64,000 bases of DNA. It comes from Candidatus Brennerbacteria bacterium (GTDB lineage: Bacteria > Patescibacteriota > Minisyncoccia > UBA6257 > GWB1-50-10). The notes under the pieces were generated by a model that was not told the origin of the DNA, did no database searches, and saw nothing but the letters and a program-made list of their open reading frames with translations. Each line of letters begins with the position of its first letter. The stretch's first letter is position 1. A program made the translations under genes and the position numbers. The stretch covers positions 1,382-65,381 of the forward strand of contig JACPEK010000002.1 in assembly GCA_016183535.1 (NCBI GenBank), written 5' to 3'. Shown piece after piece: positions 12,625-63,429 of the stretch.

Positions 12625-12664
12625 CACAACATTCCAACATTCTATAGAATGTTGGAATGTTGTG
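12625..12664. repeat. Perfect 40-bp palindrome, repeat family copy A (CACAACATTCCAACATTCTA|TAGAATGTTGGAATGTTGTG)
   Basis: Read directly from the sequence. It starts 8 nt after the alaS stop codon. Related copies are at 16797, 61291, 61617 and 63393. Confidence 0.9.
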
Positions 12665-12777: not shown

Positions 12778-14769
12778 ATGGAAGACGCACCGGAGAAAAA
12801 CGTGGCCTATTTCGGCCGTGTGGACTTTCGAAATCAAAATAGGCTTTTTGGCATCAAGCGCATCGACCGGCGCCAGCATATGTATGTGATCGGGAAAACC
12901 GGCACCGGGAAAAGCGCGATGCTTCACAACCTTATCGTCCAGGATATCGCGAACGGTGAGGGGGTGTGTGTGGTGGATCCACACGGCGAGCTTGTGGAAT
13001 CGATCCTCACGAAGATTCCGAAGGAGCGGGTCGCCGACGTGGTGTATTTCAACCCTGCGGACAGCGAATATCCAATGGGATTCAACGTGCTCGAACTCCC
13101 CGACCCGAAATACAAACATCTTGTGGCGTCCGGTCTCATGGGGATTTTCACGAAGATTTGGGCGGGTACGTGGTCCGCGCGGATGGAGTACATTTTGAAC
13201 AACGCGGTCCTGGCGCTCCTTGATACGCCGAGCTCGACGCTTCTCGGCGTGAGCCGCATTCTCGTCGACAAGGAATACCGCCAACAAATTCTCGCGAACG
13301 TGAAGGATCCGGTGGTGCGGTCGTTCTGGCTCAACGAATACGAGGAGTGGCGTGACCAGTTCAGAAACGAGGCCATCGCCCCGATCCAAAACAAAGTGGG
13401 GCAATTTCTCTCGACCGCGATGATTCGGAACGTGGTGGGTCAGCCGCGGAGCACCATCGACATTTTCAAGATCATGAACGAGGGGAAAATTTTTCTCGTG
13501 AACGTGTCAAAGGGCCGCATCGGGGAGGACAACTCGGCGCTCTTGGGCGCCATGCTCATCACAAAAATCCAACTCGCCGCGATGGAGCGCGTGCGCATTT
13601 CCGAGGATGAGCGCGTGGATTTCTACCTCTACGTGGACGAGTTCCAGAATTTTGCGACCGATTCGTTCGCGGGCATCCTTTCCGAGGCGCGGAAATACCG
13701 CCTGAATCTTGTACTTGCGCACCAGTATATCGGTCAGCTGGTTACGGATATTTCCACAAAGGTGCGCGACGCGGTGTTCGGGAATGTGGGGACGATGATC
13801 GTGTTTCGCGTGGGAGCCGCCGATGCGGAATTTTTGGAGCAGGAATTCACGCCGGAACTCACGCAGGAAGATATTGTAAACCTTCCGAACTACACGATTT
13901 ATCTCAAGCTTATGGTGGACGGCATTACCTCGCGGCCGTTTTCCGCGCGCACCCTCCCGCCATTCAAAGTGGAAACTTCGGAAAGCGCCGCGGAGATGGT
14001 AATGATCGAATCGCGCCGGCGTTATGCGAAACCGCGGTATGCGGTGGAGGGAGAAATTACGCGGTGGGCGGGTGGCATGGTGGAAAATAATGGCGCGGCG
14101 GATGGATCCGACGAAAATCACTTTGGGGGCGCGGGGGGAGGTGAGGCGGGAAAATTCGAGGCGGTATGTTCCTCGTGCGGGAAAATCACCACCGTGCCGT
14201 TCAAGCCGCTCCCAGGGCGTCCCGTCTATTGCCAGGATTGTCTGAAAAAAATAAAAACCGGCGAGCTCCCGCCGGTGCGAGTGCCACGCCTGCCCGACCA
14301 GCAAGCGGGTGCGCTTTCGGAACGGGAAGAAACCGGCTCCATGAGCCATCTCGCAAAACTGGGAATAGAGTTCGGGGCTAATGTCCGTGGCGCCGAGAAT
14401 GCTCGTCATAAGCGTGAGGGGGAACATGCGCCGACACCGCGTCGGTTCACAGAAATAAGACCGCGTCCCGCGCCAGTCAACAAAAAGAATTTTGAAAAAC
14501 GCGAAACGCCTCCGCCTCTGCCGGTCGTAGCGGGCCTTAATGAAAAAAATCGCCAAGAGCACCAAGAAAGGCCGCGTCATCGCCCTTCCATCCTCCGCGA
14601 TGATCCTGCCATCCCCGTCTCTTCGGAGGAGGAGCAGGAACATAAACTTCGCTTGAGCGAGCTCCAACCGACGGAACTGAAGGAAACAAAAAAGCCGTCG
14701 TGGGACGACGGCGAGCCGGACATCAAGGGGTTGCAGGATGCGCTCCGCGACGCGCTCAAAAATATTTAA
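12778..14769 (+). CDS. TraG/VirD4/TrwB-like (T4SS coupling-protein-like) P-loop ATPase with a C-terminal CxxC-x17-CxxC zinc ribbon and a long disordered K/E/P-rich tail
   Basis: Walker A IGKTGTGKS, VVDPHGE, Walker B YLYVDEFQNF, AHQYIGQL. CSSCGK...YCQDC ribbon near aa 460. The last ~200 aa are low complexity. TATAAT lies 7 nt upstream of the ATG. Confidence 0.6.
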   Translation: MEDAPEKNVAYFGRVDFRNQNRLFGIKRIDRRQHMYVIGKTGTGKSAMLHNLIVQDIANGEGVCVVDPHGELVESILTKIPKERVADVVYFNPADSEYPMGFNVLELPDPKYKHLVASGLMGIFTKIWAGTWSARMEYILNNAVLALLDTPSSTLLGVSRILVDKEYRQQILANVKDPVVRSFWLNEYEEWRDQFRNEAIAPIQNKVGQFLSTAMIRNVVGQPRSTIDIFKIMNEGKIFLVNVSKGRIGEDNSALLGAMLITKIQLAAMERVRISEDERVDFYLYVDEFQNFATDSFAGILSEARKYRLNLVLAHQYIGQLVTDISTKVRDAVFGNVGTMIVFRVGAADAEFLEQEFTPELTQEDIVNLPNYTIYLKLMVDGITSRPFSARTLPPFKVETSESAAEMVMIESRRRYAKPRYAVEGEITRWAGGMVENNGAADGSDENHFGGAGGGEAGKFEAVCSSCGKITTVPFKPLPGRPVYCQDCLKKIKTGELPPVRVPRLPDQQAGALSEREETGSMSHLAKLGIEFGANVRGAENARHKREGEHAPTPRRFTEIRPRPAPVNKKNFEKRETPPPLPVVAGLNEKNRQEHQERPRHRPSILRDDPAIPVSSEEEQEHKLRLSELQPTELKETKKPSWDDGEPDIKGLQDALRDALKNI

Positions 14770-16650: not shown

Positions 16651-18138
16651 ATGCGAGCGTACGACGCGTTTTTCTTCGGGGCGCTTTTCTTTCTCCTCGG
16701 AGTGCTGGTTGCCAGTATGGGATGGCATGAAGCGGTGTGGTGGATCGTCGGAGGCGGGATTGCGCTCTCGATCGCGTTCCAGCTTTGCCACCGTAAAAAA
16801 CATTCTAACATTCTATCGAATGTTAGAATGTGGTGGTGGGGGGAGGGGTGGCTCGTCGTGGCCGTTCTTCTTTTTTTCATTCCCGCAGGCGCGTTTTACT
16901 ATAGAACGGATGATGCGCATTTTAGTCGCGCGCCGCTCCCGGAAGACGAACGGACGTTTCGTGTCGCGGTGGTGTCGCATCCGACGGTGAAAGAAGGGAC
17001 GCAGGAGGCCGTGTTCGCGCTTGAAGGGTACAATATCCGCGTTCTCGCAAAACTCCCGGCCTATCCTGCGTTCTCGTACGGCGATCGCGCGATGTTCGAG
17101 GGGCGTATCGAGAAACCGTTTTCCGATTCGTATCGCACCTACCTCGCGAAAGAACGGATACGCGGGGTGATGGCGTTTCCTAAAATTTTCGCGCACGAAT
17201 CCGGAAACTTATCGTTCCGCGCCGCACTCTATATGTTCCGTGATAAAATCGTTGATGCTTTCCGCCGGACGCTTCCCGCGAAAGAAGCCGCGCTCATGGC
17301 GGGCGTTACGGTCGGGGCGCGCGAGGATTTCTCGGAAGAATTCCGCGCCGCGATGGCGAAGAGCGGCACCACGCATATCACCGCGCTTTCGGGTTACAAC
17401 ATTTCGGTGGTCATTCAATACGTGATGTGGTTTTTGCTTTTCGTATTCCCGCGCCGCAGCGCGTTTATCGCTACGCTCGGGGTGGTGCTTGCGTTCGTGC
17501 TTATGACGGGCGCCGAGGCTTCGGTGGTGCGCGCGGCGGTAATGGGGGCGATCGCGCTTCTCGCGTCTCATGTGGGACGTCGCGCAAGCACGAGAAATAT
17601 AATCATACTCGCGGCGCTCGCGATGGTGCTCGTAAATCCGAAGGTGCTCGCATTTGACCTCGGATTCCAACTTTCATTCCTCGCGCTTCTCGGGATTGTA
17701 TATCTCAAGCCCGCGCTCGACCGGTTTTTTGGATGGGGAAGGGATCATGGGCGGGGTGTTTTCTCGTGGCGTGAAAACCTCACGACGACCGCGTCGGCGC
17801 AATTTGCGGTCGCGCCACTCCTCATCCATACCTTCGGGAGTGTGAGCGTTACCTCGCTCGCCGCGAACCTTCTGGTTCTTGAAGTGGTGCCGCTCACGAT
17901 GGGGCTTGGTTTTATCCTCGCGGGAGTTTCGCTTGTTTCGCTATTTCTTTCAAAACTCATTGCGCTTGTGGCGCTCCTCTTCCTCAAATTTCAGACGTTC
18001 GTAATCGAATTATTTGCAACCCTCGCCATACCGGTGGGGCCGACGTTTTCTCTCGGCACAGTCTTGCTTTACTACGGGGCGATCGTCGTATTTGTGTATT
18101 ATGTTCGCCGAAATCGCTTCATTCCTCGAAAAATCTAG
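16651..18138 (+). CDS. comEC: ComEC/Rec2 competence channel protein, N-terminal part (TM helices, DUF4131-like OB domain, competence domain)
   Basis: Multi-TM; SGTTHITALSGYNISVV competence motif. The start was moved to the first ATG after the mnmA stop. The MBL domain is in a separate overlapping ORF (next feature). Confidence 0.75.
   Translation: MRAYDAFFFGALFFLLGVLVASMGWHEAVWWIVGGGIALSIAFQLCHRKKHSNILSNVRMWWWGEGWLVVAVLLFFIPAGAFYYRTDDAHFSRAPLPEDERTFRVAVVSHPTVKEGTQEAVFALEGYNIRVLAKLPAYPAFSYGDRAMFEGRIEKPFSDSYRTYLAKERIRGVMAFPKIFAHESGNLSFRAALYMFRDKIVDAFRRTLPAKEAALMAGVTVGAREDFSEEFRAAMAKSGTTHITALSGYNISVVIQYVMWFLLFVFPRRSAFIATLGVVLAFVLMTGAEASVVRAAVMGAIALLASHVGRRASTRNIIILAALAMVLVNPKVLAFDLGFQLSFLALLGIVYLKPALDRFFGWGRDHGRGVFSWRENLTTTASAQFAVAPLLIHTFGSVSVTSLAANLLVLEVVPLTMGLGFILAGVSLVSLFLSKLIALVALLFLKFQTFVIELFATLAIPVGPTFSLGTVLLYYGAIVVFVYYVRRNRFIPRKI
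16797..16830. repeat. Palindrome repeat family copy B (ACATTCTAACATTC-TATC-GAATGTTAGAATGT), in frame inside comEC
   Basis: 14-bp stem with a 4-nt loop, one substitution relative to the copy A core. It encodes KKHSNILSNVRMW between TM2 and the OB domain. Confidence 0.85.
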
Positions 18139-21063: not shown

Positions 21064-21228
21064 AGGAAGTCCTGCTTTTAGATTCCGGATCAAATTAATT
21101 TGAAAAGGGATTCTTAATCGTTCCGGTTCGTGAATCGGAATTGCGGAAACCCACGTAGGTCAGACGCCGGGAATCATGAGGCAGAACTTCCGATCAAAAA
21201 CCACCTCGCGCGAGGTGGTTTTTGATTT
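21064..21228 (+). ncRNA. Putative ~165-nt structured ncRNA of unknown class
   Basis: TATAAT at 21052-21057. 5-prime GGAAGTCCTGC (21068-78) pairs with 3-prime GCAGAACTTCC (21187-97), closing a multi-hairpin body (TCAAATT/AATTTGA, TTCCG...CGGAA). It ends in the CCACCTCGCGCGAGGTGG + T-tract terminator. No CDS is present. Confidence 0.35.
21195..21228. terminator. Bidirectional intrinsic terminator
   Basis: An A5 run, an 18-nt perfect hairpin CCACCTCGCGCGAGGTGG (21200-21217), then TTTTTGATTTT. It can serve the + strand ncRNA and the - strand tRNA-Pro. Confidence 0.7.
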
Positions 21229-44725: not shown

Positions 44726-46582
44726 ATGAAACGAGAACTTATCGCGAGCGCGTTGATACTCTTTGTCGGCATCGTGGTCGCGGGAGCGGTGGCGGTCGTG
44801 CCGGCACTCGCGCAAGAAGGGAATGTGGCGAAGATCGAGTTTCCCGTCGCGGAGCTTGGCAATTGCGGGAGCGAGCAGGCGTGCAAAACCTATTGCGACG
44901 ATCCTGCGCACATCAAAGCGTGTGTGAATTTCGCGGAGCAGAACGGTCTCATGTCGCGCGCGGAAGCCGCGACCGCGCGGAAGTTCGCGGAAGGCGCATT
45001 CAAAGGCCCCGGCGGATGCACGTCGCGAGAATCGTGCGAATCGTACTGCGACGACGTGAGTCGCATTAATGAATGTGTGGCGTTCGCTGAATCGCAGGGG
45101 TTTCTCCCTCCCGAAGAATTAGCGGAGGTAAAACAGGTGCAATCCGCCATTGCGCGGGGCGTGGTGCCGCCCGCGTGCGGGAACAAGCGCGCGTGTGAAA
45201 GTTACTGCCGCGCGCCCGCGCACATGCAGGAATGTATCGCGTTCGGCGAAGCGGCTGGCTTCATCAAGGGGCAGGAATTGGAAGATGCGAAGAAAGTTTT
45301 GGGCGCGATAGAGAAAGGCGTAACCCCGCCCCCGTGCGGCGGGAAAAAAGAGTGCGATACCTACTGCGGAGAGGAAGCGAATTTCCCGCAGTGTATCGCG
45401 TTCGCGGAGGCCGCGGGGTTCATGTCGAAGGAAGAAGTTGCAATAGCAAAGAAGACGGGCGGGAAAGGCCCTGGCGGGTGCCGCGGCGAAGAATGTAAAA
45501 CCTATTGCGACAATCCCGCGAATCAGGGAATATGCTTCGCCTTCGCGAAGGAACATGGCCTCTTGAAACAGGAGGATCTTCAAAGGATGGAGGAGGGGAA
45601 GGCAAAGTTTGCGGAAGGGCTCCGGCAGGCGCCGCCCGAGGTGGCGGAGTGCTTGAAATCAACGGTAGGCGAAGAAGTATTGAACAAGCTTGCCACGGAG
45701 GGCGGTATGCCCCCGCGGGACCTGGGCGAGAAAATGCGCGCGTGTTTCGAGAATTTCAGACCTCGCCCGTCCGAAGAGTTCCGCGAAGGTGGGCCCTCGC
45801 AGGGGAATTTTCAAGGGCCGCCCTCGTTCGGAGAAGGTTTTGGTGAATCGCAGGGCGCATTCAGCGGCCCGGGCGGATGCACGAGTCCGGAAGAGTGCCG
45901 TTCCTACTGCGAATCGAATCCGGAGGCGTGCGCTAACTTTGGCGGCGGGATGATAAGGGAAGGAAGAGAAATTCCGCGTCCCGGCGAAGTTCCTCATTTC
46001 GAAGACGGGTTTCAAAGGGGTCAGTTCCCTGCATGTTCATCGCCCGAAGAGTGCAAACAGCAGTTCGAGGGTCGGGGCGGTTTCCCGGGCGGAACATCGG
46101 AGGGAGCGTTTCCGGTTCCTCCCAACAACATGATGCCGCAGGAGTTTCAAAAACAGTTTGGTGATCAATACCGCGCGGAATTTGAAAAACAATATCAACA
46201 AGGAAATATGCTGCCTGCGGGTCTTTCTCCGCAATATCCGCAAGGAGCGATGCCGTCTGGTGTGATGATGCCGCAGTCGCCGATGCGGGAGTTTCAGGGC
46301 GCGCCGTATCCCGCGCCGGGCGCGTATCCGCAACCGACCGGCGGAACCTATCCCTCACCGAGCGCTTATCCTTCAGGTGCAGAAAGTTTCCAGCAGTATC
46401 AGCAGTATCAAGGAACGACCGGCGGCTATCCGCCTGCCCCGACCGGAGCGTCGGGACCGCCACCTTCTGGTGAATTTAACGCGCCGCCGCCCGAGTTTCA
46501 AAGCGCGCCGCCGCCGCCTCCTTCAAGCTTGGGTCCGCAGACGCTCCTCGGTCTCTTCCTCAACATCTTCCGCGGCGAGTAG
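44726..46582 (+). CDS. Secreted cysteine-rich repeat protein (at least 6 repeats of ~50 aa, C-x4-C-x3-C-x8-9-C) with a C-terminal Q/P/Y/G low-complexity tail
   Basis: Signal peptide ending ALAQEG. Repeat units include GxCxSxExCxxYCDxPxHxxxCxxFAExxGF. The last ~200 aa are proline/glutamine rich. Confidence 0.7.
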   Translation: MKRELIASALILFVGIVVAGAVAVVPALAQEGNVAKIEFPVAELGNCGSEQACKTYCDDPAHIKACVNFAEQNGLMSRAEAATARKFAEGAFKGPGGCTSRESCESYCDDVSRINECVAFAESQGFLPPEELAEVKQVQSAIARGVVPPACGNKRACESYCRAPAHMQECIAFGEAAGFIKGQELEDAKKVLGAIEKGVTPPPCGGKKECDTYCGEEANFPQCIAFAEAAGFMSKEEVAIAKKTGGKGPGGCRGEECKTYCDNPANQGICFAFAKEHGLLKQEDLQRMEEGKAKFAEGLRQAPPEVAECLKSTVGEEVLNKLATEGGMPPRDLGEKMRACFENFRPRPSEEFREGGPSQGNFQGPPSFGEGFGESQGAFSGPGGCTSPEECRSYCESNPEACANFGGGMIREGREIPRPGEVPHFEDGFQRGQFPACSSPEECKQQFEGRGGFPGGTSEGAFPVPPNNMMPQEFQKQFGDQYRAEFEKQYQQGNMLPAGLSPQYPQGAMPSGVMMPQSPMREFQGAPYPAPGAYPQPTGGTYPSPSAYPSGAESFQQYQQYQGTTGGYPPAPTGASGPPPSGEFNAPPPEFQSAPPPPPSSLGPQTLLGLFLNIFRGE

Positions 46583-46675
46583 AAAATTCCCGAAGAATAT
46601 CGTCGGGAATTTTCTATTATCATGATCCCGTCGAGGCTTGTCTCGAGCGAAGCCGAGGGATAGGATGGTTCCGCC

Positions 46676-50398: not shown

Positions 50399-50515
50399 GA
50401 AAAATTCATGCCCTCCCACGGCGCGATCATCGAAGAAAGCCCGTAGCCCTCATTCGCCAATTCGCGCGAATAAGCGAATAGTTCCCGCCGTCCAGTTTTG
50501 AGGTAGAATGTGGTC

Positions 50516-53001: not shown

Positions 53002-53478
53002 ATGAATATTCGAAAGGGGATTGCGCTTGTGGTGGCGGTGGGGGCGTCGCTTCTCGCGGGCGCTATCGGTTCCATATTCACCGCATCCTCAGTCTCCTTG
53101 TGGTACCCGACACTCATGAAACCGGCGCTCAACCCTCCCTCGTGGGTTTTTGGCCCCGTGTGGACCGTGCTCTACGTGCTTATGGGTATTGCGGCGTTCC
53201 TCGTGTGGAGGCAAGGGTGGGAGCGGCGCGACGTAAAAGACGCGCTCAAGATATTTGCGCTCCAGCTCGTGCTGAATGCGCTTTGGTCCGTACTCTTCTT
53301 CGGGCTCCAAAGCCCGCTTCTCGCGCTCGTGGGCATCGTGCTCTTGTGGGGCGCAATACTCTGGGTTATATCTGCGTTCGCACGCATTTCACGCCCTGCG
53401 GCGTGGCTTTTGGTGCTCTACCTCGCGTGGGTTACCTTCGCGACATATCTCAATGCCGCCATCTGGCTCTTGAACTAG
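53002..53478 (+). CDS. tspO: TspO/MBR family tryptophan-rich sensory protein
   Basis: 158 aa, 5 TM helices, W-rich (PSWVFGPVWTVLY, LNALWSVLFF). GGGTAGAAT box 8 nt upstream of the ATG. Confidence 0.85.
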   Translation: MNIRKGIALVVAVGASLLAGAIGSIFTASSVSLWYPTLMKPALNPPSWVFGPVWTVLYVLMGIAAFLVWRQGWERRDVKDALKIFALQLVLNALWSVLFFGLQSPLLALVGIVLLWGAILWVISAFARISRPAAWLLVLYLAWVTFATYLNAAIWLLN

Positions 53479-54108: not shown

Positions 54109-54244
54109 GCCTCTCGGTCACTTCGCACCCTCGCCTTGCTTGCTTCGGAGCAACGGGGGAGTGTAGCACCGTTAATCCCTCATTCGCCAATTCGCGCGAA
54201 TTGGTGAATGATTCCCGCTGTGCGTTTTAGGGTAGAATGGAGAT

Positions 54245-54316: not shown

Positions 54317-54478
54317 CCGAATGAGCAGAGGATGATTCGCCGATCAGTTGAAGCATCGGGCGTTCTATAAGGCGTCTTACCGAGCTTTTTGTGAGACAAA
54401 TTGCGGCCTTTTGTGGTTGTCCACAGGCAGAGACGACAGTGGGGAGTAAGATAAAAGAGAAGTAATAAAGAACAGCTC

Positions 54479-54546
54479 GGCGTTTCGAGAGTACACATAG
54501 TGTGAGACCACGCGGTCTTGTGTGTTCTCGAAACGCCGTTTTTGTT
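54479..54546 (+). terminator. Long compound hairpin terminator
   Basis: GGCGTTTCGAGAGTACACA...TGTGTTCTCGAAACGCC with an inner AGACC/GGTCT stem, followed by TTTTTGTTTG. Confidence 0.6.
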
Positions 54547-59616: not shown

Positions 59617-61020
59617 ATGCGCTATGATTTGCCCATGACGCAAGAACAAGCGCTTTTGGTTTTAAAAAGCGGTGCCAATGTCTTTCTCACCGGCGAGCCG
59701 GGATCGGGAAAAACACACACCGTGACCCGCTACGTGGCCTATCTGCGGGAGTACGGTATCGAGCCCGCGATCACCGCCTCGACCGGCATCGCGGCGACGC
59801 ATGTAGGAGGCATGACCATTCACGCGTGGAGCGGCATCGGCGTGCGGAAATCGCTCTCGCGCGACGAGGCGGAATCTCTGGCGGACAACGATCGACTCGC
59901 CGCGCGGGTCGCGCGCGCCACGGTACTCATTATTGACGAAATCTCGATGCTCGACGCCGCGACGCTCTCTGCGGTGGACCTTGCGTGCCGCGCGCTCCGC
60001 CGACGCGAGTCGCCGTTCGGCGGTTTGCAGATCGTGCTCGTGGGGGATTTTTTCCAACTGCCGCCCGTCGCGCGCGAGGACGAGCCGCCGGCGCAATTTG
60101 CGTTCCATTCCTCCTCGTGGGAGGATGCAAACCTCTCCGTATGCTACCTCTCGGAGCAATACCGGCAAGACGACCCGGCCTTCCTTTCGTTCCTTGCAAC
60201 CCTGCGGCGTGGCGCGGCAAACCATGAAACGTCCGCGGCGCTCCGCGCGGGCGTAAAGGAGGGCGTCCGCGACGCGCACGACACACACCTTTACGCGCAC
60301 AACGTTGATGTCGATCGTATGAACGAGAATCATTTAACGGCGCTCCCCGGGGAATCCCATGCGTTTGTGATGGAATCGCACGGCGCAAAGGCGCTCGTCG
60401 AGCAATTGAAACGCGGGTGTCTTTCGCCCGAACGGCTCTCGCTTAAAACCAGTGCGCGCGTGCTCTTCACAAAAAATAATTTTGAAAATGGATTTGTGAA
60501 CGGCACGCTCGGCGAGGTGGAAGATTTTGCCGAGGATGGCTATCCGTTGGTGCGTACGCGCACGGGGCGCCTCATCCACGCGCTTCCCATGGAATGGTCC
60601 ATCATGGACGGTGCACGTGCGCTCGCCCGCATCCGGCAGGTGCCCTTGAAGCTCGCATGGGCGATTACCATGCATAAAAGTCAGGGGATGACGCTCGATG
60701 TCGCCACGGTGGACCTCTCTCGCGCGTTCGAGTACGGGCAGGGATACGTAGCGCTCTCCCGCGTGCGCTCTTTTGCGGGTCTCTCCCTCCTCGGCTGGAA
60801 TGAACGCGCGCTCGAAGTGCATCCCGACATTCTCGCGCGCGACGAAGATTTTCGGGCGCACGCGGCGCGTACCGCGGCCGCGCTTGCAGGGCGCGCACCC
60901 GCCGCACAAAATGGGCTCGAAAAAAAATTCATTACCGCGTGCGGCGGGAAAATGAAGAAATCAAACGCGGCGCGGAGGGGTAGGTGGCGTACGCGGAGAA
61001 AATTTTCTACCCGCGGCTAA
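59617..61020 (+). CDS. Pif1/RecD2-family ATP-dependent DNA helicase with a basic C-terminal tail
   Basis: Walker A GEPGSGKT, Walker B LIIDEISM, VLVGDFFQLPPV, MHKSQGMT..VALSRV motifs. It starts 2 nt after the giant protein's stop. Confidence 0.8.
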   Translation: MRYDLPMTQEQALLVLKSGANVFLTGEPGSGKTHTVTRYVAYLREYGIEPAITASTGIAATHVGGMTIHAWSGIGVRKSLSRDEAESLADNDRLAARVARATVLIIDEISMLDAATLSAVDLACRALRRRESPFGGLQIVLVGDFFQLPPVAREDEPPAQFAFHSSSWEDANLSVCYLSEQYRQDDPAFLSFLATLRRGAANHETSAALRAGVKEGVRDAHDTHLYAHNVDVDRMNENHLTALPGESHAFVMESHGAKALVEQLKRGCLSPERLSLKTSARVLFTKNNFENGFVNGTLGEVEDFAEDGYPLVRTRTGRLIHALPMEWSIMDGARALARIRQVPLKLAWAITMHKSQGMTLDVATVDLSRAFEYGQGYVALSRVRSFAGLSLLGWNERALEVHPDILARDEDFRAHAARTAAALAGRAPAAQNGLEKKFITACGGKMKKSNAARRGRWRTRRKFSTRG

Positions 61021-61053: not shown

Positions 61054-61290
61054 TTGGAGTACAATGAACGTATGAGATTCTTCGTGCGCGTGAAGCCGAA
61101 CGCGAAGGAGGAGAAAGTGACGGGCGAGGGGACGAATTTTACGGTAGCGGTGAAAGCGCCGCCGCGCGAGGGCAAGGCAAACACGGCGGTCATCGCGGCG
61201 CTCGCCGCGCATTTCAACGTGCCAAAATCGCAGGTCAACATTGTTGCCGGCCACGTTGCACGCCACAAAGTCATTGAAATTTCTCCCTAG
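61054..61290 (+). CDS. DUF167 (YggU-like) small protein
   Basis: RFFVRVKPNAKEEKV...VAVKAPPREGKANTAVIAALAAHFNVPKSQVNIVAGHVARHKVIEI. Confidence 0.75.
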   Translation: MEYNERMRFFVRVKPNAKEEKVTGEGTNFTVAVKAPPREGKANTAVIAALAAHFNVPKSQVNIVAGHVARHKVIEISP

Positions 61291-61330
61291 CACAACATTC
61301 CAACATTCTGCAGAATGTTGGAATGTTGTG
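61291..61330. repeat. Perfect 40-bp palindrome, family copy C (CACAACATTCCAACATTCTG|CAGAATGTTGGAATGTTGTG)
   Basis: It starts immediately after the DUF167 stop and overlaps the -35 position of the TATAAT (61347-61352) promoter of the ArsR-like gene. Confidence 0.9.
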
Positions 61331-61358
61331 GAAAAAGTCGGTGCGGTATAATGAAACT

Positions 61359-61625
61359 ATGAAAACGCCACAGCAACTGGAGCGATATTTCAAGGGGGCG
61401 GCGAACCATTGGCGTATCTCAATTTTGACCGCCGTCGGGAAACACAACGGCATTACGCTCGATGGAGTCGCGCGAGCGCTCGGCGGCAATTTCAAGACCG
61501 TTTCACAACATACCCGTCAGCTGGTGCGCGCGGGGCTTCTTAATAAGCGATATCAAGGACGCTGGGTCACTCATTCGCTTTCGCCCTACGGCCGCCGATT
61601 TCTCACCTTTATGAGAACATTCTAA
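61359..61625 (+). CDS. ArsR/SmtB-family winged-helix transcriptional regulator
   Basis: 88 aa; HTH GITLDGVARALGGNFKTVSQHTRQLVRAGLL. Start set at MKTPQQ, 6 nt after the TATAAT box (leaderless). The ORF track's 61323 start lies inside the palindrome. Confidence 0.65.
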   Translation: MKTPQQLERYFKGAANHWRISILTAVGKHNGITLDGVARALGGNFKTVSQHTRQLVRAGLLNKRYQGRWVTHSLSPYGRRFLTFMRTF

Positions 61626-61652
61626 TATTCTGCAGAATGTTAGAATGTTGTA
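61617..61652. repeat. Palindrome family copy D (ACATTCTAATATTCTG|CAGAATGTTAGAATGT, one mismatch)
   Basis: It overlaps the ArsR-like stop codon. Confidence 0.85.
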
Positions 61653-61692
61653 AGAAGGAAAAGAAAGCTTAACGATACGACGGTGCGGGGCG

Positions 61693-62439
61693 GTGTGTAT
61701 ACTTTCCATGCTTCGCAAAGGAAAGAAAAAGAGCGAGCGCGACGTCGTGCTCGTGGCGGTTCTCAAAGATCCGCGCGATCTCCGCATCCTGCGGCGAAAG
61801 CGCTGGTATCGGATCCCGCTCGCGTTTCTGCCGAAGCGGAAGTTCCACTACCTCGCGTTTTATCAACCCGCGATCTTCGGAAAGAACGGAACGCGCATCG
61901 CATACTACGGGCGGGTGGCACGGCAGAGAGTCGCGGAACGCGTGAAACTCCTGCCGTGCGAAGTGAGCCACCCGCGGGCGCATCATTTATACGCACAGAT
62001 ATTTTTGAAGCGGATCGAAACGCTCCCGCGTCCGATACGGAATGTCGCGCCGCGCCGAGTCTCCTTTGGCTTCACCACGCTCGCGAAGCTCCGCACGGCC
62101 AAAAATCTCCTTGCGCTCTATGGGGTGCCGCCGACCGAAGACATTATGGCGCGCGCACTTCGGCGCGAAAATCTCCGCGCGCTCCGTGAATTCCCCGTTT
62201 CACTCGCGGGGAAACGTTTTCGGTTGGACTTCGCGGTGCTCGCGGGTGGGCGGCGGATCGCGATCGAGTGTGACAACGAAAAGGCGCATGCAAATAAAAT
62301 CCAACGACGCCGGGATCGGGCCAAAAACATTGTCCTCCGCCGCGCGGGTTGGCGCGTGATTCGTCTCGGGGAGCACGATATTACGGAGCACCTCGACGTG
62401 TGTATGGAAAGAATCCGCATCAACATAGAAAAGATATGA
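61693..62439 (+). CDS. DUF559 (Vsr-like endonuclease fold) domain protein with an unknown N-terminal domain
   Basis: C-terminal RLDFAVLAGGRRIAIECDNEKAHANKIQRRRDRAKNIVLRRAGWRVIRLGEHDI matches the DUF559 pattern. Confidence 0.6.
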   Translation: MCILSMLRKGKKKSERDVVLVAVLKDPRDLRILRRKRWYRIPLAFLPKRKFHYLAFYQPAIFGKNGTRIAYYGRVARQRVAERVKLLPCEVSHPRAHHLYAQIFLKRIETLPRPIRNVAPRRVSFGFTTLAKLRTAKNLLALYGVPPTEDIMARALRRENLRALREFPVSLAGKRFRLDFAVLAGGRRIAIECDNEKAHANKIQRRRDRAKNIVLRRAGWRVIRLGEHDITEHLDVCMERIRINIEKI

Positions 62440-62654
62440 AATATGGAACGGACAACCCGCATCCGCCCCTGCGGAGCGAGATCAAGGTGGGCGACGCGGT
62501 GTGGGTCATAGAAAAAGCCAACTACGGCACGACGAACTACACGCAGGGCATCGTGGCGGCTATCCTCTCGCCCGGCGGTGTCCATCCGAGGGGCATCAAA
62601 GTGCGCCTCACCGACGGTATCATCGGCAGGGTGCAGTGGAAGATAGAGGGTTAG
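62436..62654 (+). CDS. YwbE-like (DUF2196) small protein
   Basis: GDAVWVIEKANYGTTNYTQGIVAAILSPGGVHPRGIKVRLTDGIIGRV. Its start overlaps the upstream stop (ATGA). Confidence 0.7.
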   Translation: MKYGTDNPHPPLRSEIKVGDAVWVIEKANYGTTNYTQGIVAAILSPGGVHPRGIKVRLTDGIIGRVQWKIEG

Positions 62655-62674
62655 TTGTTTATAATAAAAGGAAG

Positions 62675-63394
62675 ATGAAGGCAATAGGGATAGATGTAGG
62701 CGGTTCGAAGATACGCGCGGTGCGGGTTCGGCTGGCTCACCGCGAGCGGTGGAACGGCACGAGGGTAGAGAAGCTCGTCGTCGCGAAAACTCCGCGGAGC
62801 GCCGCGGCGCTCACCAAGATTCTCCGGCGGATAATCGTGTCGCTTGAAGAACATGAAGCGTTTTCTGTGGGAATAGGATTTGCAGGCGTCGTTCAGGACC
62901 GGAAGATCGTTATGAGCCCCAATAACCGATTTTTAAAACACTATGATCCTTCGCGCGCGCTTGGTCGTGCGGTGACAATAGACAACGACGCGCGTGTGTT
63001 TGCCAGAGCTGAATATGCCATGGGTGCGGCGAAGGGAGCTCAACGCGCGCTCTTTCTTACATTCGGCACGGGTGTGGGTCGCGCGTACGGTATTGGAAGT
63101 GAGGTAAAGCGCGTGAAGCGATTCGAGTACCCGGAGCAATGGGAGAAACATTATCAACACGTGAAGGGTGTTGCGGCGCTCGCGCCGTTCCTTGCGGAAA
63201 AACTTCAGCCGCTCATCCGTGCATACCAGCCGGCAGTTATCGTCGCGGGCGGCGCAGTTGCCGAGAAAAAAGGATTTATTGCCGCGTTCCGTGCGGAATT
63301 AAAGAAGCGGGGGTTTAAAGACGTTGTTGCGGGCGCCAAGCTTGGCACGCTTGCGGGCGCGATCGGCGCGGCGATGACTGCACGTGCAAAATAA
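62675..63394 (+). CDS. ROK-family sugar kinase (glucokinase-like)
   Basis: N-terminal IGIDVGGSKIRAV ATP-binding motif; sugar-kinase fold. AAAAGGAAG RBS. Confidence 0.7.
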   Translation: MKAIGIDVGGSKIRAVRVRLAHRERWNGTRVEKLVVAKTPRSAAALTKILRRIIVSLEEHEAFSVGIGFAGVVQDRKIVMSPNNRFLKHYDPSRALGRAVTIDNDARVFARAEYAMGAAKGAQRALFLTFGTGVGRAYGIGSEVKRVKRFEYPEQWEKHYQHVKGVAALAPFLAEKLQPLIRAYQPAVIVAGGAVAEKKGFIAAFRAELKKRGFKDVVAGAKLGTLAGAIGAAMTARAK

Positions 63395-63429
63395 CATTCC
63401 AACATTCTGCAGAATGTTGGAATGTTGTG
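63393..63429. repeat. Palindrome family copy E (AACATTCCAACATTCTG|CAGAATGTTGGAATGTTGTG)
   Basis: It overlaps the ROK stop codon and ends 1 nt before the GH1 start codon. Confidence 0.9.

What the first reader, a model, noticed from the sequence alone, without database searches (positions are those of the whole stretch)
61054..63429. ArsR-like regulator islet with a leaderless promoter, bracketed by palindromes and mixed with DUF167, DUF559, YwbE-like, ROK kinase and GH1 genes
The TATAAT box at 61347-61352 lies 6 nt upstream of the ArsR-like ATG, so the mRNA is leaderless, and the 40-bp palindrome overlaps where the -35 element would be. This is a classic autorepression geometry for ArsR/SmtB dimers. 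Downstream genes are tightly packed with overlapping starts and stops, and there is a second palindrome at the ArsR stop and a third at the ROK/GH1 junction. A sugar kinase and a beta-glucosidase under palindrome control could form a host-derived glycan scavenging module.
Basis: partly seen in the sequence, partly recalled or inferred. Interest (0 to 1): 0.5.

Follow-up and report, generated by a model that had tools for sequence, protein, structure and literature searches.

The report
Tiny regulator with dispersed cognate palindrome
The "ArsR-like islet" is real, but its 34-40 bp palindrome is a near-invariant DNA element found in over 100 uncultured bacterial species, paired with a dedicated 88-residue DNA-binding protein whose gene it brackets, so it is not a local switch for sugar genes.

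Summary
The palindrome is not local. The window holds five copies. An exact-pattern scan found it in 118 genome stretches from about 100 species, mostly Patescibacteria/CPR and also genuine PVC-group contigs.

The only recurrent neighbour is an 88-aa ArsR/SmtB-fold protein with no Cys and no metal site. In 26 of 28 homologous loci its gene is bracketed by two copies. One copy lies just upstream of a -10 box placed 6-9 nt before the ATG. The other starts at nt +258 (18 loci) or a few to ~50 nt later, usually overlapping the stop codon. Divergent family members carry correspondingly divergent palindromes, which argues for direct protein-site recognition and autoregulation.

Solitary copies sit right after stop codons, including between convergent genes. 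Three lie in frame inside conserved genes (ComEC, TspO, MurC). They show mirrored substitutions and centre flips, no target-site duplications and no conserved regulon. ROK and GH1 are not recurrent partners. A DUF559-like nuclease gene is.

Best reading: an effector-less autoregulated repressor together with a copy-pasted cognate palindrome. The function of the solitary copies is unresolved. This is a new variant of a known kind.

The parts
61291..61330 (.). P1: the upstream copy of the palindrome. It is 40 bp and perfect, with a conserved 34-bp core at 61294-61327. It abuts the DUF167 stop codon and ends 16 nt before the -10 box of the wHTH gene.
   Evidence: The DNA hairpin folds at -19.5 kcal/mol, z -7. 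An equivalent upstream copy is present in 26 of 28 homolog loci.
61347..61352 (+). TATAAT -10 box, 6 nt upstream of the ATG. This predicts a leaderless mRNA.
   Evidence: A -10-like hexamer sits 6-9 nt before the start codon in most homolog loci, often preceded by TGn. The TATAAT-N5-8-ATG pattern occurs 4 times in the window against 0.64 expected.
61359..61625 (+). Gene for the 88-aa effector-less ArsR/SmtB-fold winged-helix protein. The family length is almost always 88 aa.
   Evidence: AF2 mean pLDDT is 91. Foldseek gives TM 0.85-0.90 to CadC, CzrA, ArsR and HlyU.
61616..61649 (.). P2: the downstream copy (34 bp, one mismatch). It encodes the last two residues (T, F) and the TAA stop codon of the wHTH gene. 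It lies 47 nt upstream of the TATACT box of the DUF559-like gene.
   Evidence: In 18 of 28 homolog loci the downstream copy starts exactly at nt +258 of the gene.
61708..62439 (+). DUF559/MTES_1575-like predicted nuclease gene (243 aa). A TATACT box lies at 61697-61702.
63393..63426 (.). P3: a solitary perfect 34-bp copy. It overlaps the ROK stop codon (63392-63394) and ends 4 nt before the GH1 ATG.
12625..12664 (.). Solitary perfect 40-bp copy with centre TA. It lies 7 nt after the AlaRS stop codon and 100 nt upstream of the TATAAT box of a TrwB-like ATPase gene.
16799..16832 (.). Degenerate copy lying in frame inside the ComEC gene. It encodes the peptide ..HSNILSNVRMW.. within the DUF4131 membrane domain.

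Best explanation
The 88-aa protein is an effector-less member of the ArsR/SmtB fold. Its cognate DNA site is the 34-40 bp palindrome A-N-AACATTC[C/T]AACATTCT-NN-AGAATGTT[G/A]GAATGTT-N-T, which consists of four 8-bp units, two per arm. This suggests two dimers bind each site (inferred).

The gene is bracketed by two copies of its site. The upstream copy ends just before an (often extended) -10 box placed 6-9 nt from the ATG. Binding there should therefore occlude RNA polymerase and autorepress a leaderless transcript (inferred from geometry).

The downstream copy overlaps the gene's own stop codon. It probably acts as a second operator, a roadblock or a loop partner. In this window it also sits in front of the DUF559-like nuclease gene (inferred).

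The palindrome is also a dispersed element that has been copied and pasted. About 5-20 copies per genome are estimated. They are near-identical in over 100 species of Patescibacteria and in PVC bacteria. They cluster near the wHTH gene, sit on stop codons, and occasionally lie in frame inside genes.

Palindromy is actively maintained, as shown by mirrored substitutions, centre flips and site-specific stem extensions. This points to DNA hairpin or cruciform formation, or to templated correction in vivo.

Shown: the anatomy, the distribution, the protein-site co-variation and the fold. Inferred: binding, autorepression, and any role of the solitary copies. ROK and GH1 are bystanders.
For: Association: an ArsR-like homolog (50-72% identity) lies next to the palindrome in about 27 of 118 loci. 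It is the only recurrent neighbour family, with 30 members among 936 clusters.

Architecture: 26 of 28 loci have both flanking copies. The 3' copy starts at nt +258 in 18 of them. Similarity between cassettes from different phyla ends exactly at the outer palindrome edges.

Co-variation: distant family members carry different palindromes of the same design, both upstream and at the 3' end.
- L129: TCATTTCCAACTTTCT-TA-...
- L130: ATCATTC in place of AACATTC, seen in all four units of its downstream copy and in the inner units of its upstream copy.
- L131, L133, L135 and L087 also differ.
- A paralogous subfamily has 42-46 bp palindromes centred on ATTCG-NN-CGAAT.

Promoter geometry is conserved.

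Fold and ligands: the protein has an ArsR/SmtB fold and no ligand residues.

Dispersal:
- 118 stretches in about 100 species.
- The cassette sits in a genuine PVC context.
- An orthologous solitary copy is retained between two species, with a mirrored change and a centre flip.
- There are 65 mirrored changes against 74 single-arm changes.
- Inverted 5-mers flanking the core number 19 against 1.7 expected. There is no excess of direct repeats.
- Three copies lie in frame inside ComEC, TspO and MurC.
- Extra copies occur about once per 10 kb near the gene, against once per 79 kb elsewhere.
Against: - No binding experiment exists, and the stoichiometry is guessed.
- Most solitary copies are not at promoters. 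In tandem intergenic regions they sit a median of about 27 nt from the upstream stop codon. 15 lie between convergent genes. A plain repressor-operator model does not explain them.
- Dimer binding alone does not predict mirrored substitutions.
- A 34-bp invariant site carries far more information than a transcription factor needs. Some copying mechanism must exist, and none was identified.
- No transposase or recombinase recurs nearby.
- One species population shows the cassette in a fixed context, so there is no sign of recent mobility.
- In the window's own cassette the palindrome ends 16 nt before the -10 box. It therefore covers the -35 region but not the -10 box.
Confidence: 0.7

Rival explanations
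1. Selfish mobile palindrome, like a REP, MITE or Rickettsia palindromic element. Under this reading the 34-40 bp element spreads by an unidentified trans-acting mechanism. The wHTH is a hitch-hiking or domesticated binder, for example one that suppresses cruciform toxicity. Solitary copies would have no host function.
For: - Near-identical copies sit in unrelated contexts and in different phyla.
- Three copies are inserted in frame inside conserved genes, all in the same benign reading frame.
- The element lies in extragenic positions next to stop codons and between convergent genes.
- The protein gene is flanked by two copies, as RAYT genes are flanked by REPs.
- HlyU, the best PDB sequence match, is reported to attenuate a DNA cruciform (PMC10325908).
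Against: - No transposase, HUH enzyme or recombinase recurs nearby.
- There are no target-site duplications.
- Copy number is low.
- The sequence is invariant across genomes of 25-60% GC, rather than species-specific.
- A solitary copy is conserved at an orthologous site while its flanks diverged to about 80% identity.
- The cassette context is stable within a species.
- It is absent from viral contigs, phages and plasmids.
Confidence: 0.25
2. Protein-assisted bidirectional boundary element. Solitary copies, and the copy at the wHTH stop codon, would act as roadblocks or terminators at gene 3' ends. The wHTH bound to a symmetric site would stop RNA polymerase from either direction and insulate neighbouring units.
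For: - A stop codon lies at -4..-2 of the core on 62 of 330 flank sides.
- In tandem intergenic regions the site sits close to the upstream stop codon rather than the downstream start codon.
- The element fills short convergent intergenic regions, with a median length of 87 nt.
- A distant homolog (L133) has a canonical GC-stem plus T-run terminator exactly where the downstream palindrome sits in other loci.
- All four intergenic copies in the window follow a + strand stop codon.
Against: - Only about 35% of copies have a T-run, and none of the window copies has one.
- The enrichment in convergent intergenic regions is modest and not significant: 15 of 78 against 13% background.
- The genome has ordinary intrinsic terminators, for example at 54478-54545.
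- Copy number is too low for a general termination system.
- The in-frame copies inside genes would then be harmful.
Confidence: 0.2
3. RNA-level element. Under this reading the palindrome is transcribed and works as a 3'-UTR hairpin, acting as a stabiliser, an RNase III site or an intrinsic terminator. The protein would be unrelated to it.
For: - Predicted stems are strong: DNA parameters give -10 to -19.5 kcal/mol, z -5.6 to -8.9.
- The element sits just after stop codons.
- Mirrored (compensatory) changes and variable stem extensions are present.
Against: - There is no G.U bias on the sense strand: 11 G.U against 13 A.C.
- The arms are conserved in sequence, not merely in pairing, across about 100 species.
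- There is no Rfam family match.
- The element is tightly coupled to the wHTH gene, and protein and palindrome co-vary.
- Copies also lie upstream of promoters.
Confidence: 0.08
4. A local metal- or metalloid-sensing ArsR autorepressor would use three operators to control a ROK kinase and GH1 glucosidase glycan-scavenging module.
For: - Three copies lie within 2.1 kb, at gene junctions.
- The promoter geometry fits autorepression.
- Copies cluster near the wHTH gene in other genomes too.
Against: - There are no Cys or alpha3/alpha5 ligand residues.
- ROK and GH1 were found next to the element in none of the other 118 loci.
- P3 overlaps the ROK stop codon, as solitary copies do elsewhere.
- The same palindrome lies next to about 900 unrelated protein clusters.
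Confidence: 0.04

Closest known systems
ArsR/SmtB-family autorepressors with 12-2-12 inverted-repeat operators (SmtB, CzrA, CadC, ArsR)
   Same: The fold matches at TM 0.85-0.90. The protein is small and has a terminal helix of the kind that mediates dimerisation in this family. The operator is palindromic with a free 2-bp centre and lies next to the protein's own promoter. The 12-2-12 operator form is from established knowledge of the family.
   Different: There is no metal or thiol sensing site. The site is 16-2-16 to 19-2-19 and perfect. The gene is bracketed by two copies, with the second overlapping the stop codon. The site is dispersed in near-identical copies across genomes and phyla. 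Curated family scores are below cut-off.
HlyU (Vibrio), a non-metal ArsR-family regulator that binds a palindrome and attenuates a DNA cruciform (PMC10325908)
   Same: HlyU is the best PDB sequence match to the family profile, at E 2.4e-5. It is effector-less and acts on a palindromic, cruciform-prone target. Mirrored substitutions and centre flips in the present element suggest that its DNA also extrudes.
   Different: HlyU is described as acting at a virulence locus, as an anti-silencer. In PMC10325908 no bracketing of its own gene and no dispersed family of identical sites is described.
REP elements and their RAYT transposases (REPINs)
   Same: Both are short extragenic palindromes after stop codons and between convergent genes. 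In both, one protein gene is flanked by two copies, and protein and palindrome co-vary between lineages.
   Different: The protein here is a winged helix without any catalytic motif. Copy number is about 10 per genome rather than hundreds. The sequence is nearly invariant across phyla. No GTAG-type 5' motif is present.
Rickettsia palindromic elements (RPEs)
   Same: Both are palindromic elements found in frame inside conserved protein-coding genes without destroying them.
   Different: RPEs are about 100-150 bp, restricted to one genus, and have no dedicated binding protein (from memory). The present element is 34-40 bp and spans several phyla.
Site-plus-binder systems whose gene lies beside a cluster of its own dispersed sites (ParB/parS, RTP/Ter, Tus/Ter)
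   Same: Each has a handful of conserved sites per genome, concentrated near the gene for the binding protein. RTP is also a small winged-helix dimer, with two dimers binding per site (from memory).
   Different: No partner ATPase is present, and no link to the origin or terminus was found. Perfect symmetry is incompatible with polar fork arrest.

Membership tests
ArsR/SmtB family (fold level) | A winged helix with the order a1-a2-a3-aR-b1-b2-a5 and a C-terminal dimerisation helix | tested here: met
   The AF2 model has pLDDT 91 with elements H4-14, H17-28, H34-41, H45-58, E61-66, E69-74 and H76-87. Foldseek top hits are CadC, ArsR, SmtB, CzrA, HlyU and PagR, with TM 0.8-0.9 and probability 1.0.
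ArsR/SmtB family (sequence models) | A score above the curated cut-off of the family HMMs | tested here: inconclusive
   NF033788 scores 39.5 bits against a cut-off of 55. Pfam HTH_20 scores 21.4 against 27. Many homologs carry precomputed PF01022 (HTH_5) hits. The family profile matches HlyU, CadC and ArsR chains at E 2e-5 to 5e-3.
ArsR/SmtB metalloregulators | A metal or metalloid sensing site: alpha3/alpha3N Cys, or alpha5 Asp/His/Glu ligands | tested here: not met
   The window protein has no Cys. Helix a5 (PYGRRFLTFMRTF) has no His, Asp or Glu. The family-invariant His residues (H17, H51, H72) lie in helix 2 (H17-28), the recognition helix and the wing.
ArsR/SmtB autorepressors | The protein binds an inverted repeat overlapping its own promoter | not testable with these tools
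   The geometry fits and is conserved. Protein and palindrome co-vary. No binding data exist.
REP/RAYT | The flanked gene encodes an HUH Y1 transposase | tested here: not met
   The flanked gene encodes an 88-aa winged helix. No Y1 or other transposase family is found among 98 cassette neighbours.
REP/RAYT | Many extragenic palindromic copies, preferentially at 3' ends and in convergent intergenic regions | tested here: inconclusive
   The position rule is met. Only about 1 extra copy per 79 kb is found away from the cassette, and 5 in this 64-kb window. Whole-genome counts could not be made.
MITE | Terminal inverted repeats flanked by a target-site duplication | tested here: not met
   Direct repeats flanking the element are at the chance level for all offsets and lengths tested. 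Only inverted complementarity is in excess.
Intrinsic (Rho-independent) terminator | A G+C-rich stem followed by a T-run | tested here: not met
   The stem is 35% G+C. The terminator scan does not call any of the three local copies. No window copy has a T-run. Only about 35% of oriented copies elsewhere have at least 4 T in the next 6 nt.
Structured RNA family (Rfam) | A match to a curated covariance model | tested here: not met
   Only sub-threshold chance matches to miRNA hairpin models were found.
CRISPR array / integron attC | Regularly spaced repeats with spacers, or imperfect attC hairpins with an adjacent integrase | tested here: not met
   Spacings in the window are 4.2 kb, 44 kb, 322 bp and 1.8 kb. 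The palindromes are perfect. No cas or integrase genes are found among the neighbours.

The most novel reading that the evidence does not exclude
This may be a transposase-free protein-palindrome partnership of a new kind. A family of 88-aa effector-less winged-helix proteins would each own a long perfect palindrome. That palindrome would be copied around reduced genomes, including in frame into genes, and exchanged between CPR and PVC bacteria. It would serve as a protein-bound cruciform or roadblock boundary element at gene ends. This would resemble REP/RAYT without a nuclease, or a bacterial counterpart of protein-dependent terminators and insulators.
Probability: 0.2. Interest if true: 0.85.

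Novelty: new variant of a known kind. Interest (0 to 1): 0.62.

Why it matters
Patescibacteria have tiny genomes, few regulators and almost no experimentally characterised DNA-binding proteins. This finding provides an unusually clean, testable pair. One partner is an 88-residue protein. The other is a roughly 36-bp site that is essentially invariant across more than 100 species, with natural specificity variants in which protein and site change together.

If binding is confirmed, this would be one of the few regulator-operator pairs defined for this radiation. It would also offer a compact model for how ArsR-fold proteins read DNA.

The solitary copies raise a second question: how does a 34-bp palindrome get copied to new sites, even into genes, without a recognisable transposase? 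It is also unclear whether the copies act as boundaries, roadblocks or cruciforms. The recurrent neighbours are a DUF559-like nuclease, PIF1-like helicase, RmuC and TrwB-like ATPase. These hint at a link to DNA processing.

Tried and rejected
- **Rfam.** A search of the region at relaxed threshold gave only chance matches to miRNA hairpin models.
- **Literature.** Searches by exact sequence and by topic found no prior description.
- **Mobile-element carriers.** Viral contigs gave 0 matches to the pattern. Phages gave no protein match. Plasmids gave only generic ArsR proteins at about 30% identity.
- **Conserved regulon.** All-against-all clustering of flanking proteins, and Pfam scans of 81 genes starting and 89 genes ending next to sites, showed none. 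TspO (4), NUDIX (3) and a few DNA-repair families recur weakly on the start side.
- **Transposase or recombinase next to the cassette.** None was found among 98 neighbours.
- **Target-site duplications.** None.
- **RNA-level selection.** There is no G.U bias.
- **General terminator role.** T-runs are present in only about a third of copies.
- **Recent mobility.** One identical protein read on 24 contigs showed a single context across all 10 places displayed.
- **Replication-origin link.** The two copies near the end of a complete genome (L092) are not next to dnaA or dnaN. The window shows no skew switch.
- **Defence-system or phage-family membership.** Only generic winged-helix hits were found.
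- **CRISPR, integron attC, dif/Xer, serine-recombinase and protelomerase sites.** These were considered from memory. They were set aside because of copy number, perfect symmetry, or the absence of the enzyme.
- **Short homolog-bearing contigs as a sign of assembly breaks at repeats.** Not informative, because the collection's median contig is about 1 kb.
Full report
**Observation.**
- P1 is a perfect 40-bp palindrome at 61291-61330. It begins one base after the DUF167 stop codon.
- TATAAT lies at 61347-61352, 6 nt before the ATG at 61359.
- P2 (61616-649; 34 bp, one mismatch) contains the TAA stop codon of the ArsR-like gene.
- P3 (63393-63426, perfect) overlaps the ROK stop codon and ends 4 nt before the GH1 ATG.

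Pfam and NCBIfam confirm DUF167, an ArsR-like winged helix, DUF559/MTES_1575, YwbE/DUF2196, ROK and GH1, with a PIF1-like helicase upstream. The ArsR-like protein scores below the curated cut-offs.

The repeat is far beyond chance. Shuffles give 0.00 and 0.42 expected matches, against 5 and 10 observed.

The same searches show two more copies in the window.
- One is a perfect 40-mer at 12625-12664, 7 nt after the AlaRS stop codon.
- The other is a degenerate copy at 16799-16832. It lies in frame inside ComEC, within its DUF4131 membrane domain.

**The palindrome is not local.**
They come from about 100 species.
- Most are Patescibacteria (Saccharibacteria, Paceibacterota/Parcubacteria lineages, Doudna-, Uhr- and Sungbacteria, and others).
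- Some are MAGs labelled Kiritimatiellia, Verrucomicrobia, Lentisphaerae, Planctomycetia, Bdellovibrionales and Gammaproteobacteria.

Host G+C ranges from 25% to 60%, while the element stays at 35%.

The gene next to the Kiritimatiellia copy has PVC-group best hits. Its 91%-identical relative sits on a contig of the same length (154,391 bp) as the Verrucomicrobiota contig that also carries the cassette. The non-CPR occurrences are therefore genuine.

The window itself is from a Candidatus Brennerbacteria MAG.

Across 166 copies the motif is A-N-AACATTC[C/T]AACATTCT-NN-AGAATGTT[G/A]GAATGTT-N-T. The central dinucleotide is free, and conservation stops sharply at the edges.

No Rfam family matches. 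It was found in no viral contig, and the protein has no close relative in phages or plasmids. No paper in the searchable library describes it.

**The one constant partner is the 88-aa protein.**
tblastn finds a homolog (50-72% identity) directly beside the palindrome in about 27 of 118 loci. All-against-all clustering of 1177 flanking proteins gives 936 clusters. Only this family is recurrent, with 30 members.

In 26 of 28 complete homolog loci the gene has two flanking copies.
- The upstream copy starts 46-143 nt before the ATG, in most loci 57-66 nt.
- The downstream copy starts exactly at nt +258 of the 267-nt gene in 18 loci. The last codons (Thr-Phe-stop) therefore lie inside the palindrome.

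The T8 variant creates the TAA stop codon, and its mirror position changes with it.

Nucleotide similarity between cassettes from different phyla ends exactly at the outer edges of the two palindromes. For example, Kiritimatiellia L024 against the window is 73.6% identical over 363 bp. The flanks are unrelated.

The family numbers at least 373 clusters at 90% identity. Almost all members are exactly 88 aa, and mean column identity is 81%. At 50% clustering there are 170 representatives with E below 1e-10.

**What the protein is.**
The AlphaFold model is confident (pLDDT 91) and shows the ArsR/SmtB topology. Foldseek gives CadC, ArsR, SmtB, CzrA, HlyU and PagR at TM 0.8-0.9. The family profile's best PDB hit is HlyU, at E 2.4e-5.

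The protein has no Cys and no His, Asp or Glu in helix a5. The family conserves none of the known metal ligands.

**Evidence that protein and palindrome recognise each other.**
More distant family members carry different palindromes of the same design in the same places.
- L129 has TCATTTCCAACTTTCT-TA-AGAAAGTTGGAAATGA upstream, and a related copy inside its last codons.
- L130 has ATCATTC in place of AACATTC, seen in all four units of its downstream copy and in the inner units of its upstream copy.
- L131, L133 and L135 have further variants.
- L087 has an AT-rich pair.

A paralogous 88-aa subfamily (27-33% identity) is associated with 42-46 bp perfect palindromes centred on ATTCG-NN-CGAAT.

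Coordinated change of all repeat units together with the recognition helix is what a cognate pair predicts. The four-unit structure suggests two dimers per site; this is an inference.

**Promoter geometry.**
In most cassettes a -10-like hexamer lies 6-9 nt before the start codon, often preceded by TGn. It lies 1-19 nt after the right edge of the palindrome.

It is not peculiar to this gene. TATAAT-N5-8-ATG occurs four times in the window.

**Solitary copies do not behave like promoter operators.**
119 copies lie away from the gene.
- 56 lie between tandem genes. There they sit close to the upstream stop codon (median about 27 nt) rather than the downstream start codon (about 87 nt).
- 15 lie between convergent genes.
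- 7 lie between divergent genes.

Two convergent examples were checked by hand.

A stop codon occupies positions -4..-2 of the core on 62 of 330 flank sides.

One solitary copy between convergent genes is retained at the orthologous position in two species whose flanks are about 80% identical. It differs only by a mirrored C/T-G/A change and a TG-to-CA flip of the centre.

Genes starting next to copies fall into 76 Pfam families among 81 proteins. Genes ending there fall into 142 families among 89 proteins. Neither ROK nor GH1 recurs. TspO (4), NUDIX (3), HhH-GPD (2), PIF1 (2), DUF559 (2) and RmuC (1) recur weakly on the start side only.

**Evidence for DNA-level palindromy and copy-paste spread.**
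- Deviations from the consensus are mirrored in the other arm 65 times, against 74 single-arm changes. Excluding positions left free in the search, the counts are 18 against 47. Both are far above independence.
- Complementarity extends beyond the conserved core with site-specific sequence. Inverted 5-mers number 19 against 1.7 expected. Direct repeats, which would indicate target-site duplications, are at chance level.
- Non-Watson-Crick pairs show no G.U preference on the sense strand (11 against 13). Only about 35% of copies are followed by a T-run. An RNA hairpin or classical terminator is therefore not the main explanation.
- Predicted DNA hairpins are strong, at -10 to -19.5 kcal/mol.
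- Three copies lie in frame inside conserved genes where homologs lack them: ComEC in the window, TspO in L116 and MurC in L077. All use the same reading frame (HSNIL-x-NVGM).

A 34-bp near-invariant sequence cannot arise repeatedly by point mutation, so the element must be copied. How is unknown.
- No transposase or recombinase recurs near the cassette.
- Within one Sungbacteria population the cassette always has the same neighbours.
- Extra copies are about eight times denser near the wHTH gene than elsewhere. A rough estimate is 5-20 copies per genome.

- P1 is both the element sitting on the DUF167 stop codon and the likely operator of the wHTH promoter.
- P2 carries the wHTH stop codon and lies 47 nt upstream of the TATACT box of the DUF559-like gene.
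- P3 sits on the ROK stop codon, as solitary copies do elsewhere.

The DUF559/MTES_1575-like protein belongs to a large CPR family. It lies directly downstream of a small ArsR-like gene plus long palindrome in four loci.
- Window and L059: downstream of this family.
- L137 and L141: downstream of the paralogous family, in the order RmuC-wHTH-palindrome-DUF559.

It does not do so in L139 or L143. It is the only gene in the interval with comparative support as a regulated partner.

PIF1-like helicase genes are also near the cassette in 5 of 30 loci, and TrwB-like ATPase genes are near copies in 9 of 118.

**Verdict.**
The autoregulation geometry is supported by comparative data. The local sugar-module and metal-sensor reading is not supported.

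The best-supported explanation is an effector-less ArsR-fold repressor and its cognate long palindrome. The palindrome brackets the gene and has also been dispersed through many genomes. The role of the solitary copies is open; they could be boundary or roadblock elements, cruciforms, decoys, or selfish remnants.

By kind this is a new variant of a known system, the ArsR-type autoregulator. A minority possibility is that the protein-palindrome partnership is a new class of dispersed element.

Noticed in passing
window 50448-50490 and 54178-54219: A second palindrome family, CCCTCATTCGCCAATTCG-CG-CGAATTGGTGAATGA followed by TTCCCGC. Each copy lies about 12-20 nt upstream of a TAGAAT -10 box and a start codon. 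It has the same ATTCG-NN-CGAAT-centred design as the 42-46 bp palindromes beside a paralogous 88-aa ArsR-like protein in L020, L137 and L141. That paralog's gene is not in the window.
   Followed up: partly
window 16651-18138 (ComEC), copy at 16799-16832; L116 848-1486 (TspO); L077 2095-3651 (MurC): Palindrome copies sit in frame inside conserved genes. All use the reading frame that gives HSNIL(Q/E/S)NVGM. Homologs lack the insert.
   Followed up: yes
window 61708-62439; L059 168-895; L137 4001-4717; L141 4001-4792: The DUF559/MTES_1575-like predicted nuclease has an uncharacterised 140-aa N-terminal domain. It recurs directly downstream of small ArsR-like genes with long palindromes. In L137 and L141 the order is ComEC, MBL, RmuC, wHTH, palindrome, DUF559.
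   Followed up: partly
window 59617-61020 and 12778-14769: A PIF1-like helicase and a TrwB/VirD4-like ATPase with a treble-clef zinc finger both recur near the palindrome or cassette in other genomes: PIF1 in 5 of 30 cassette loci, TrwB-like in 9 of 118 loci. The TrwB-like gene also has TATAAT 7 nt before its ATG.
   Followed up: partly
L003, L037, L075, L102, L116, L051 (TspO genes); window TspO at 53002-53478: Most TspO/MBR genes in the fetched loci lie close to a palindrome copy, often with the copy upstream of the gene. This is the strongest, though still weak, hint of a regulated target. The window's own TspO has no copy nearby.
   Followed up: partly
L133 1775-1806: A distant family member has a canonical GC-stem terminator with an A-tract and a T-tract. 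It sits exactly where the downstream palindrome lies in other cassettes.
   Followed up: no
window 54478-54545: An ordinary intrinsic terminator: 20-nt G+C-rich arms, a 21-nt loop and a T-run. It shows that the genome uses classical terminators elsewhere.
   Followed up: no
window 21193-21226 and 46580-46616: Two other near-perfect palindromes unrelated to the main family: ATCAAAAACCACCTCGC/GCGAGGTGGTTTTTGAT and TAGAAAATTCCCGAAGA/TCGTCGGGAATTTTCTA.
   Followed up: no
L044 6249-6672; L060 3708-3894; L092 5173 and 7397: Local duplications involve the element.
- L044: a roughly 337-bp unit (palindrome plus flank) is repeated in tandem.
- L060: a truncated second wHTH paralog ends in a degenerate copy just upstream of the intact cassette.
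- L092: two copies in a complete Parcubacteria genome share longer identical flanks.
   Followed up: no
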